DNA from: Pseudomonadota bacterium | GTDB taxonomy: Bacteria > Desulfobacterota > Desulfobulbia > Desulfobulbales > Desulfocapsaceae | Assembly: GCA_043826415.1 (NCBI GenBank) | Contig: JBDRQE010000020.1 | Span: 1 to 64,000, forward strand | Length of the DNA stretch: 64,000 bases | Reading direction: 5' to 3' | Shown: positions 33,001 through 36,000 of the stretch, piece after piece | Layout: every line of letters begins with the position of its first letter | Numbering within the stretch: position 1 is the first letter of the stretch | Position numbers: made by a program

Positions 33001-36000
33001 TGACCGCCACATCCATGGCCTCATCAGGGTCACTGTAATAACTGACCAGTTTTTCCTGTTCGCAGCGATGGTGATCAAGGCCTAAGGCCTTGTCCATAAT
33101 GATATCAGAGAGGACCACCACATCAAGATCGCGCAGTGGTTCCGCGCGTCCGGCAAGAACATCACGTGCCTCCTGTTTAAGGCTGAGCAGAAAGCATCTG
33201 TCTTCGCCGGGATGATAGACCCCGAAGGTGGAGGAGCTTTTATCAGGCGACAACCGTTCAAGCTCGTTCATCCGCGCCAGCACCTCGCCCATCAAGGTCT
33301 CCCGGCTACCGCCAAGAATCTCCTCACAGAGGAAATATCGATCAAGACAATTCAGCAGCCCTGCCGCATCCATCCTGCCCGGCCAGCGTAACAGCCTGTG
33401 GGTGGGCAAAACGGAAAGACCCGGATCTTCCATGGGGCAGAGATACATGATGATATGATTGGCCGGATCATTTGCCGCCAACTCACCTTTCGCTGCACGC
33501 ACCATCTTACTATAGGCCAGGGCGGTGGTATAACGATGATGACCATCAGCTATATAGAGAGACTTGGTCAAGAATTGTCGCTGCACTTCTTTGATGGTCT
33601 CCGTGTTAGTCACCCGCCACAGGCTGTGAATGCAGCCGTCACCATCAGTCACGGAGCCAAGAGATTCCCGATCCTGCTGTTCAAGCAGGGCCAGCACCTC
33701 ATGGTGTGGATCAGAATAAAGGGAAAAGATCTGACTGAACTGGGCCTTGCAGGTGGCAGTCAGGCGCAGACGGTCGGCGATCACTGTATCAAAAGTCTGT
33801 TCATGGGGCTTGACCACGCCTTCTGCAAATTCCGACAGACCGACAAGCGCGACAAAGCCTTTGCGGGTCAACCTTTTGCCGGATGGGTGTGAGTACTCGG
33901 TATGATAAAGATAGATCCCCGGCTCAGGGTCTCGTACCAGCACCTTTTCTGCAAGCCACTGGCTGAACAGATCGGCTGCCTCCTGATAGCGCGCATCGGC
34001 CTCATCTCCCGGCCCGATGTTTTTGACGATGTCAAGCCTGATCATATTATAAGGATTTCTGGCAAGATAGGCAGCAACACCATGGGTGCTGATCACATCG
34101 TAGGGCGGGGTTACGACCTCATCGAGTTTCCCGACTTTCTGCGGATTAAAATGTACACCCTTGAGGGGGGCAATAAAGGCCATGCTCTTTCACTCCTTTT
34201 CTGCTACAATATGCGGCAATATAAATGGACAGAAAGTTGGGGAACAGCTGACGGATTTGATTTCGTCCGTATCTTGCTTGCCTCCTCTCTCTTCTGTCCT
34301 CTAATTTCCGGCATACCCTACCATTTCAAGAATGAATTTTCCAAGGTTTTCAGCCATGTTCTGTTGAATAATGACGGGCTGTCATTGGCGGAAAAAACAG
34401 CCACGGAGGAACACCGATGTTTGACATTTTTATCAAGACTCATTTTGCCGGCGCCCATCACCTGCGGGAATACCCAGGAAACTGCGAGCATCCGCATGGA
34501 CACAACTGGAAGGTTCAGGTTACGGTGCGGGCCACAGAACTGGATAAACTGGGCATGGGCATAGATTTCAAGGTTCTCAAAAAAAAGGTAAATGAAGTGG
34601 TTGACCAACTCGATCACCGCGACCTCAATGAGCATCCTGCCTTTCTCAACCAAAACCCATCGTCTGAGCATATTGCCGTTTTTTTATTTGAGCAGCTCAA
34701 AGATACCCTGCACCATGACCGCTATGATCTTTACAGTGTAACGGTACGGGAAACCGACAACTCGGGATTGACCTATTATGGAACAGGCCTCAACACTTAG
34801 CATCTCCGAGCTTTTTTATTCCATCCAGGGTGAGTCCACCTATGCCGGTCTGCCCTGTGTCTTCATCAGACTGGCCGGATGCAATCTGCGCTGCCGCTAC
34901 TGTGATGCCCGTTACACCTACGAGGAAGCCCATGCCGAAATGGCTATTGATACTATTCTCTCCTTTGTAGACAGCTATCCGGAAGCACTGGTGGAAATCA
35001 CCGGCGGCGAACCCCTGCTCCAGAAAAATGTCTATCCCCTGATGGAACAGCTGGTATCCAGGGGCCGCACAGTGCTTCTGGAAACCAATGGTTCACAGCC
35101 TATTGACCAAGTTCCACTGAACGTCATAGTGATCATGGACATCAAGACCCCGGACAGTGGCTCGGCGGAGACATTGGCCAGCGACAATATCTGCAACGCC
35201 AAAGAGCGAAACAGAACTGGTTCGGGGGGGTGTGAGATAAAATTCGTTCTGACCGGCAGGAATGATTATCTATGGGCGCGAGACCTGGTGCACAGGGAGG
35301 CCCTGAATAGAAGCTGCCCTACCCTCTTCTCGCCGGTTAAAGGCGAGCTCAGCCCGGAGGATCTTGCGGCCTGGATTCTACAGGACCAGCTGGCCGTCCG
35401 GCTGCAGCTGCAGTTACACACCCTGATCTGGCCGCATCTGTCACGGGGAATATAAACCAATTAAGCCGCTGTAAAAAAATAATATTTTCAGGATTGACAA
35501 TGAAAAAAACAATCGCCGTGGAAAATGCCGTTGGCATGGTCTTACCCCATGATGTCACCGAGATCGTCAAGGACAAGTTTAAGGGTTGCGCCTTCAGGAA
35601 AGGCCATATCATCAGAGAGGAAGATATTGAGCACCTGAAACGTCTGGGCAAGGATAATATCTATGTCCTGCAACTCGGGCCTGAGGAGATCCATGAGAAT
35701 GAGGCGGCCGAGAAACTGGCTACTGCTCTGATTGGTGATGGAGTGACCCGCTCTTCCGAACCGGTGGAGGGAAAGATCACCATTCTGGCAGATCGGGACG
35801 GACTGCTGAAGATCAACGTCGAAGGTCTCTATCGATTCAACCTGCTGGGTGAAGTGATGTGTTCCACTCTCCACACCAACACACCGGTAAAAAAAGGGGA
35901 GACCATTGCCGGTACTCGCCTTATTCCCCTGGTCTCGGCGCGATCCCTGGTCGATGAGGCCGTGGCTGTTGCTCAGTCATGCGCCCCGGTGATTGAGGTT

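What a model noticed while it worked through the whole genome (the two positions that open the first line are those of the whole stretch)
34417..35455. Whole queuosine pathway without QueF points to an unknown nitrile reductase
The genome has queD, queE, queC, tgt, queA and queH but no queF and no known precursor transporter row. Since QueA needs preQ1, another enzyme likely reduces preQ0, free or on tRNA. An order-wide hole at this step would point to a second family of biological nitrile reductases, of use in biocatalysis.
Evidence so far: Call 156: QueF in 0 of 31 order genomes (6 of 14 controls ring); call 188: 15 of 29 genomes outside the order have it. Call 168: order shares QueD 91%, QueC 69%, QueA 84%, Tgt 84%, QueH 83%; no Vut_1/QueT row. 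Call 187: no FolE-like T-fold protein that could be a mislabelled QueF.
(Added by a program. Inside this text positions count along the whole contig: contig position 1 is position 1 of the stretch shown here. "Call 12" and the like, gene names such as g00115 and contig names such as C1 are that model's own, and its searches are not shown. The text may have been shortened before it was handed on; [...] marks where a part breaks off. The agent that wrote the report below was given it as the finding of a first reader that could run no searches.)

Follow-up and report, generated by a model that had tools for sequence, protein, structure and literature searches.

The report
Queuosine pathway missing its nitrile reductase
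Most sampled genomes of one order of sulfur-cycling bacteria (Desulfobulbales) carry the genes before and after the nitrile-to-amine step of making the tRNA base queuosine but lack the known enzyme for that step and the stand-ins proposed for it, so they likely use a still unidentified enzyme.

Summary
The gap is real. queD-queE lie at the given coordinates; queC, tgt, queA and queH lie on other contigs; QueF is not found in this 99.9%-complete genome. Two corrections. The gap is not absolute: 6 of 151 order genomes have QueF, five inside foreign cassettes, while 137 of 151 keep native QueC without QueF. It is also not order-specific: 57 of 80 QueF-less phylum genomes have QueC, and QueA is in 80 of 80 tested. 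This scan had already proposed, on other DNA, a small iron-sulfur protein as QueF stand-in. I confirm it excludes intact QueF outside the order (65 vs 99 genomes, no overlap), but it is in 0 of 151 Desulfobulbales. LuxC, DUF366 and Vut_1 were not found here; DUF1015 and the double-cubane protein fail the profile. So the order likely has a third, unidentified route from preQ0 to preQ1. The best lead is weak: a PCC/DUF296 protein in 34 of 44 QueF-less and 0 of 6 QueF-bearing order genomes, operonic with queDEC in one other family. Salvage remains a live rival; a published table files these species so. Interest 0.62.

The parts
34417..34800 (+). queD, 6-carboxytetrahydropterin synthase (127 aa, CxxxHGH motif)
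   Evidence: TIGR03367 over cut-off; PF01242 E 7.5e-39; purine-rich GAGGA 8 nt upstream
34778..35455 (+). queE, radical SAM 7-carboxy-7-deazaguanine synthase (225 aa), overlapping queD by 23 nt
   Evidence: TIGR04349 E 2.2e-68, below that model's cut-off; QueD-like gene in 67 of 80 loci of its relatives

Best explanation
This genome and most of its order encode preQ0 synthesis and the tRNA-level queuosine steps but no QueF, and they likely reduce preQ0 to preQ1 with an unidentified enzyme unrelated to QueF. Steps: FolE2 (a likely two-gene heteromer here), QueD, QueE and QueC make preQ0 (genes shown, activity inferred from family membership). An unknown catalyst then adds four electrons to the nitrile, most likely on the free base before Tgt, because Tgt has the preQ1-type pocket (inferred). 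I commit to a metal-dependent, anaerobe-type reduction fed by a separate electron donor rather than a T-fold NADPH enzyme (inferred by analogy to the iron-sulfur stand-in of the rest of the phylum). Tgt, QueA and QueH finish Q34 (genes shown). The gene is not identified; the lead candidate is the PCC/DUF296 protein at C23:129296-129733 (about 0.15), whose invariant HxH and CxR could bind and activate the nitrile but which has no redox cofactor of its own.
For: QueF in 6 of 151 order genomes, QueC in 143 of 151; removing 5 QueF-bearing genomes and one defence-type QueC (G015, 25% identity) leaves 137 with native QueC and no QueF. QueA in 80 of 80 QueF-less genomes, 79 of them QueC-positive. Five of the six QueF-bearing order genomes have a single QueC 33-37% identical to the native type, on the other side of a 98/95 branch from the native clade, in compact queDECF or queCDEF cassettes; the sixth has a lone queF and no QueC: gaining QueF went with losing the native route. 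Tgt carries Cys and Val at the positions that favour preQ1 over queuine (alignment; PMC3660597 passages). No Vut_1 and no preQ1 riboswitch in 142 kb around the que genes. Precedent inside the phylum: the small HGD-D protein is in 65 of 193 genomes outside the order and in 0 of 99 with intact QueF, in 45 of 57 QueF-less QueC-positive ones, once directly upstream of queA-tgt. PCC lead: directly upstream of queD-queE-queC in 5 of 6 genomes of family f27, the other lineage lacking both QueF and that protein; intact orthologue in 34 of 44 QueF-less native-QueC order genomes, 0 of 6 QueF-bearing, 0 of 4 without canonical QueC, 0 of 24 phylum genomes with QueF or the HGD-D protein.
Against: No tRNA was measured. 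No gene cluster, fusion or profile gives a clean candidate: 80 queE, 40 queC and about 30 queA loci show no shared unknown reductase and 120 longer QueC relatives show no reductase fusion. The PCC lead fails in 10 of 44 QueF-less order genomes, including single-contig genomes G014, G065, G081, G091; 9 of the 10 order genomes that support its negative link belong to family f1, where 4 of 8 QueF-less genomes also lack it; 39% homologues occur in G229, which has the HGD-D protein, so the family border is not sharp; in the order it sits beside yjgA (27 of 30 loci), not beside que genes; its fold is that of AF0104/PH0802, related to acetolactate decarboxylase, not to a reductase; no fusions. Other transporter families can carry preQ1 (PMC11130926 abstract and passages), and E. 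coli Tgt inserts preQ0 when QueF is missing (PMC10639084 passages).
Confidence: 0.62

Rival explanations
1. Split pathway: the cells salvage preQ1 through an unrecognised transporter, which keeps QueA and QueH useful, while QueD/E/C supply preQ0 that Tgt inserts as a fallback, so tRNA often stops at preQ0.
For: This is how the literature files such genomes: Supplementary Table 4a of PMC10570037 lists Desulfocapsa sulfexigens, Desulfurivibrio alkaliphilus and Desulfarculus baarsii with queD/E/C 1, queF 0 as 'preQ1 salvage'. New transporter families keep appearing. Tgt accepts preQ0. Within the order, G092 has QueA without QueC or QueF, and G082 has QueF without QueC, so some members must salvage.
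Against: No Vut_1 in this genome. Keeping three enzymes for a precursor that competes with the salvaged one in 137 of 151 genomes is costly. Desulfarculus-like cases elsewhere in the phylum now have a candidate enzyme with a clean exclusion pattern, showing that the 'salvage' label can hide a displacement.
Confidence: 0.22
2. The amine-bearing base is not preQ1: preQ0, free or on tRNA, is turned into another nitrogen nucleophile (for example an amidine) that QueA and QueH decorate, giving an undescribed Q-like nucleoside.
For: Would need no four-electron reductase; a zinc hydrolase-like fold such as PCC could add a nucleophile to a nitrile (inference). Amidine formation from preQ0 is known in archaeosine synthesis (own knowledge; search listing).
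Against: No ArcS (Tgt family search gives one match), QueC has no glutamine amidotransferase domain (233 aa), no QueF-like protein; QueA scores as an ordinary QueA.
Confidence: 0.08
3. The order-specific FolE2 pair does the job: its second, remodelled composite site became a QueF analogue, as QueF itself arose from the FolE fold. (A sub-case of the best explanation.)
For: Two or more FolE2 matches in 144 of 151 order genomes, against one in 69 of 69 outside, so the pair matches the order's gap; paralogue A has Cys at the usual His position in 117 of 121 close homologues and in a distant one (P0241).
Against: The pair is fully explained as complementary halves of one cyclohydrolase site (A keeps CPCS/HNQR/ESIH, B keeps GTHMSRF and the cross-barrel Glu); B has lost the purine-anchoring Glu-Ser-Ile-His; all six QueF-bearing genomes keep both copies; f27 has the same gap with one canonical FolE2; another distant A-type lacks the Cys (P0376).
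Confidence: 0.05
4. The double-cubane protein DCCP with its ATPase (C46:77774-79853) reduces preQ0 as a side or main activity. (A sub-case of the best explanation.)
For: It is the only relative here of the phylum's HGD-D stand-in (profile E 1e-13), over the NF040772 cut-off, close to solved DCCP; DCCP reduces small triple-bonded molecules (own knowledge).
Against: Close orthologues (70% or more) in 54 of 151 order genomes, no relative at E 1e-10 in 71 of 151, including single-contig G014 and G123; it lies in an operon with a sulfonate-type ABC transporter.
Confidence: 0.04
5. Artefact: QueF sits in an assembly gap or is too divergent to detect.
For: The genome has 72 contigs.
Against: 145 of 151 order genomes at 90% completeness or more lack it, several closed; the same model detects both QueF types and even Cys-less QueF-like proteins at E 1e-16.
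Confidence: 0.01

Closest known systems
[quoted passage not shown]
   Same: All steps but one are encoded by ordinary members of the known families; Tgt has the preQ1-type pocket.
   Different: QueF is missing while both arms are kept; GTP cyclohydrolase IB is two complementary paralogues.
QueF, NADPH-dependent preQ0 reductase (PF14489, TIGR03138/03139); called the only known nitrile-to-amine enzyme family in PMC13740343 (2026)
   Same: The inferred reaction, preQ0 to preQ1.
   Different: No homologue, motif or spare T-fold protein other than FolE2; found only as foreign cassettes in 6 of 151 order genomes.
Small HGD-D iron-sulfur protein plus BcrAD/BadFG activase, proposed QueF stand-in
   Same: Fills the same gap in much of the phylum; excludes intact QueF.
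   Different: Not found in any of 151 Desulfobulbales or in family f27.
QueH as non-orthologous replacement of QueG
   Same: Same kind of pathway hole, solved by comparative genomics (own knowledge; QueG/QueH named as alternatives in PMC5372724).
   Different: That step is epoxide reduction on tRNA; here it is nitrile reduction and no gene is yet pinned down.
PCC/DUF296 proteins AF0104 (2H6L) and PH0802 (2DT4)
   Same: Fold of the lead candidate (TM 0.84-0.85) and HxH motif.
   Different: Candidate has invariant CxR where those have GGHL-type sequence; no link of PCC to queuosine was found in print or in the scan's notes.

Membership tests
Canonical de novo Q pathway | QueD, QueE, QueC and a GTP cyclohydrolase I | tested here: met
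   cyclohydrolase is split over two paralogues
Canonical de novo Q pathway | QueF | tested here: not met
   145 of 151 order genomes lack it
Canonical de novo Q pathway | Tgt with preQ1-type Cys/Val pocket, QueA, QueG or QueH, GUN tRNAs | tested here: met
Canonical de novo Q pathway | Q at position 34 without added precursor | not testable with these tools
   needs LC-MS or APB gel
preQ1 salvage variant | tgt, queA, queG/H present and queF absent (rule of PMC10570037) | tested here: met
   the rule ignores queCDE
preQ1 salvage variant | queCDE absent (definition of PMC5372724) | tested here: not met
preQ1 salvage variant | A precursor transporter | tested here: inconclusive
   Vut_1 not found; QueT only by a recalled motif; ureide permease, haemolysin III and MFS types not tested
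Small HGD-D stand-in system (scan's candidate) | About 330-aa HGD-D protein with three invariant Cys | tested here: not met
   0 of 151 order genomes, best E 4e-7 against 1e-76 or better for orthologues; profile finds only DCCP here
LuxC-LuxE-aminotransferase route (scan's candidate) | LuxC present, QueC absent | tested here: not met
   PF05893 in 0 of 5 genomes incl. G000; QueC present
Archaeosine-type systems (ArcS, GAT-QueC, QueF-L, DUF366 clusters) | Any of these genes | tested here: not met
PCC/DUF296 (lead candidate) | PF03479 match, AF0104-like fold, HxH | tested here: met
   f27 copy PF03479 65 bits; model pLDDT 96.8 of the G045 orthologue, Foldseek E 1e-9 to 2H6L
PCC/DUF296 as QueF replacement | Present wherever QueC and QueA are and QueF is not | tested here: inconclusive
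   34 of 44; 10 exceptions, several closed genomes
PCC/DUF296 as QueF replacement | Converts preQ0 to preQ1 | not testable with these tools
   needs complementation or assay

The most novel reading that the evidence does not exclude
Desulfobulbales (cable bacteria among them) run a third biological nitrile-to-amine catalyst, unrelated to QueF and to the iron-sulfur stand-in of their phylum, built on a Cys-bearing PCC/DUF296 metal fold with a separate electron donor; this would give that widespread family its first enzymatic role in nucleoside synthesis.
Probability: 0.15. Interest if true: 0.88.

Novelty: new variant of a known kind. Interest (0 to 1): 0.62.

Why it matters
A 2026 review (PMC13740343, passages read) calls QueF the only enzyme family known to reduce a nitrile directly to an amine and notes its narrow substrate range. 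A whole order with cultured members that seems to do this step without QueF, and without the stand-in used by much of its phylum, is a defined place to look for another catalyst. It also means that genome tables filing these species as queuosine 'sinks' may be wrong. One tRNA LC-MS run on a cultured strain decides whether the enzyme exists.

Tried and rejected
DUF1015 (window 32807-34183, head to head with queD, in 51 of 80 queE loci, absent from 5 of 5 QueF-bearing genomes): rejected, since it is in 174 of 201 phylum genomes including many with QueF, absent from QueF-less genus g23, and published as a serine kinase replacing SerB (GapMind 2026, passages). DUF366: not in this genome. Apparent QueC fusions of 666-671 aa in G163/G254: high-GC open frames, not fusions. 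Longer QueC relatives: inteins, QueE, MazG, methyltransferases, no reductase among the best 120 of 343. Split FolE2 and DCCP: kept only as low-odds rivals. LuxC route: not found. Conserved neighbours sfsA, nagZ, nadA, fmdB, mqnB/D, murI, TrmN6-like methylase, MoeA-like gene: synteny without a plausible role. PCC in phages: no match; in plasmids only distant homologues, and the one region read has no que genes; metagenome scan gave 5 loci, two of f27 type; Atlas gave only PCC clusters. Expression: no RNA holder listed. No complex prediction was run. Literature: nine searches showed no paper naming a QueF-independent preQ0 reductase or linking DUF296 to queuosine; subscription papers, such as the 2024 MMBR review I recall on 7-deazaguanines, were not seen and could mention the gap. 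Supplements of the bioRxiv GapMind paper were not opened and do not bear on the claim.

Full report
Observation. The window holds queD (34417-34800) and queE (34778-35455), overlapping by 23 nt. Relatives of QueE come from records titled Desulfocapsa, Desulfobulbus, Desulfurivibrionaceae and Electrothrix/Electronema, which places the genome in Desulfobulbales. The 3.49-Mb, 99.92%-complete assembly has single full-length QueC, Tgt, QueA and QueH on other contigs and the four GUN tRNAs. QueF is not found by the Pfam model (best E 0.46; 6 of 14 controls over cut-off), by tblastn with six real QueF proteins of both types (best E 0.084) or by motif. Vut_1 is not found and no preQ1 riboswitch lies in the window or four que regions. 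Tgt aligns to the E. coli-type enzyme with Cys and Val at the two specificity positions that mark preQ1 users (PMC3660597, passages).

Order-wide picture. Among 151 order genomes of at least 90% completeness, QueF is in 6 and QueC in 143. Five of the six QueF carriers have one QueC only, 33-37% identical to the native type and separated from it in a tree of 52 QueC proteins (five-row group 100/95; native-containing clade 98/95; G272 is a long branch), inside compact queD-queE-queC-queF or queC-queD-queE-queF cassettes; G082 has a lone queF and no QueC. One further QueC hit (G015) is a 25%-identical defence-type gene. That leaves 137 of 151 with native QueC and no QueF, and none with native QueC plus QueF. 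QueA is in 23 of 23 order genomes tested. I did not test Tgt, QueH or QueD rows across the order. Kin are not independent, so these are descriptive counts.

Beyond the order. QueF is in 103 of 201 phylum genomes. Of 91 QueF-less genomes outside the order, 80 were searched (handle limit): 57 have QueC and all 57 have QueA. The pattern is visible in print but read otherwise: Supplementary Table 4a of PMC10570037 lists Desulfocapsa sulfexigens, Desulfurivibrio alkaliphilus and Desulfarculus baarsii with queD, queE, queC and no queF, labelled 'preQ1 salvage', and Desulfotalea psychrophila with queF (rows seen; rule). Other schemes read in passages (PMC5372724, PMC6593275, PMC11130926) have no class for queCDE without queF.

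Candidates from neighbourhoods. 80 queE loci, 40 queC loci and about 30 queA loci were clustered. DUF1015, head to head with queD, first looked ideal (0 of 5 QueF carriers) but is in 174 of 201 phylum genomes regardless of QueF and is a published SerB substitute. DUF366 is absent. Longer QueC relatives show no reductase fusion.

The spare T-fold. The genome has two FolE2 paralogues with complementary motif loss: A (C23:157611-158372) keeps CPCS, HNQR and ESIH but has RESC for KGTH; B (C54:47018-47758) keeps DIQ and KGTHMSRF but lacks the C-terminal catalytic motifs. Two or more copies occur in 144 of 151 order genomes, including all QueF carriers, and one copy in 69 of 69 positive genomes outside. 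FolE2 sites form at three-subunit interfaces (PMC11573665, passages), so the pair is best read as one heteromeric cyclohydrolase, as an earlier scan note also concluded. A new Cys in A (117 of 121 close homologues) keeps a small chance of a second activity.

The scan's earlier candidate. Earlier notes propose a small HGD-D iron-sulfur protein with an ATP-dependent activase as QueF stand-in in anaerobes. I found such a gene in my own loci, directly upstream of queA-tgt in G183 and near queC in G194, with three invariant Cys in 30 orthologues and an activase in 7 of 30 short loci. It is in 65 of 193 phylum genomes outside the order. Three of these also match QueF, but those matches lack the catalytic Cys and sit beside a thyX-like gene (one scores below the TIGR03139 cut-off), so the overlap with intact QueF is 0 of 99; it covers 45 of 57 QueF-less QueC-positive genomes and also 9 of 23 without QueC. 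This supports that candidate, and it is absent from Desulfobulbales: 0 of 151, with only weak hits (best E 4e-7) to DCCP-sized frames in 41. The genome's one HGD-D gene is a true double-cubane protein with its ATPase beside a sulfonate-type ABC transporter; 71 of 151 order genomes have no relative of it at E 1e-10. The scan's other candidate route needs LuxC, not found in G000 or four others. So the order, and family f27 (6 of 6), keep an unexplained gap.

Lead from f27. There a 146-aa PCC/DUF296 gene lies directly upstream of queD-queE-queC (5 of 6 genomes; the sixth is cut by a contig end), and G000 has a 48%-identical orthologue at C23:129296-129733. Intact orthologues occur in 34 of 44 QueF-less native-QueC order genomes, 0 of 6 QueF carriers, 0 of 4 without canonical QueC and 0 of 24 phylum genomes with QueF or the HGD-D protein (cut at E 1e-39 to the G018 copy). 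Against it: ten exceptions, several closed; losses cluster by lineage (family f1, genus g23); 39% homologues exist in G229 and G198; in the order it neighbours yjgA; the fold is AF0104/PH0802-like and decarboxylase-related with invariant HxH and CxR but no cofactor site; no fusions or phage copies. I give it about 0.15.

Mechanism and odds. Shown: the genes on both sides of the gap, the absence of QueF and of both proposed stand-ins, and the loss of native QueC where QueF was gained. Inferred: that Q is made de novo and that free preQ0 is reduced by a metal enzyme with an external low-potential donor (0.62 for an unknown enzyme of any identity, which includes the PCC, FolE2 and DCCP sub-cases). 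Rivals: salvage with preQ0 as fallback base (0.22; Tgt inserts preQ0 in E. coli queF mutants), an altered nucleoside (0.08), artefact (0.01).

Novelty. QueF is described as the only nitrile-to-amine enzyme family (PMC13740343, passages), and nine paper searches showed no report of a substitute; subscription literature was not searchable. The idea of a QueF substitute was found before by this scan on other DNA; what is new here is that a whole order lacks that substitute too. This is a new variant of a known pathway, cheap to test in cultured strains, with the gene still open. Interest 0.62.

Noticed in passing
G000 C23:157611-158372 (L161) and C54:47018-47758 (L160): FolE2 duplicated into two paralogues with complementary loss of active-site motifs, order-wide (144 of 151 with two or more copies); paralogue A has a conserved Cys in place of the GTHMS His.
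   Followed up: yes
window 32807-34183 (-): DUF1015 / SerBK-type serine kinase head to head with queD-queE in 51 of 80 loci, followed by a TrmN6-like methyltransferase (32017-32787); lost in family f15 and several f1 genomes.
   Followed up: yes
window 35494-36525 (+): MoeA-like molybdopterin-binding protein with a C-terminal CxxCxxCxxxxC, downstream of queE in 22 of 80 loci; role unknown.
   Followed up: no
window 36713-38806 (-): FecR/DUF6600 protein with a long proline-rich, repetitive C-terminal tail.
   Followed up: no
L317:4361-4819, L318:4434-4871, L319:4375-4812: QueF-like proteins lacking the catalytic Cys, each beside a thyX-like gene and a small membrane protein, in three genomes that also have the HGD-D stand-in; an unstudied QueF offshoot.
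   Followed up: partly
G000 C45:56314-58134 (L259:6315-8135): B12 radical SAM protein over the TIGR03975 cut-off in a murI-lolA-like-rSAM-rpsA stretch with no evident peptide precursor; near queA in 6 order loci and kept in the 1.9-Mb genome G018.
   Followed up: partly
G000 C46:75164-79853 (L198): Double-cubane protein and ATPase in an operon with a sulfonate/taurine-type ABC transporter; close orthologues in 54 of 151 order genomes.
   Followed up: partly
L141:11395-12216, L268:7426-8247, L158:1626-2573: Zinc-dependent phospholipase C family gene directly upstream of queA-tgt in f27 and close to queA in G183; no homologue in G000.
   Followed up: no
G092, G124, G149 (genus g8): No QueC and no QueF, QueA present in the one tested, no LuxC in G092: probable true preQ1 salvagers inside the order.
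   Followed up: partly
P0002-P0120: Many QueC homologues carry inteins or are fused to QueE; a few are fused to MazG-like or methyltransferase domains.
   Followed up: no
L150:7674-13184: Three tandem copies of a group II intron reverse transcriptase gene just downstream of queA in G123.
   Followed up: no
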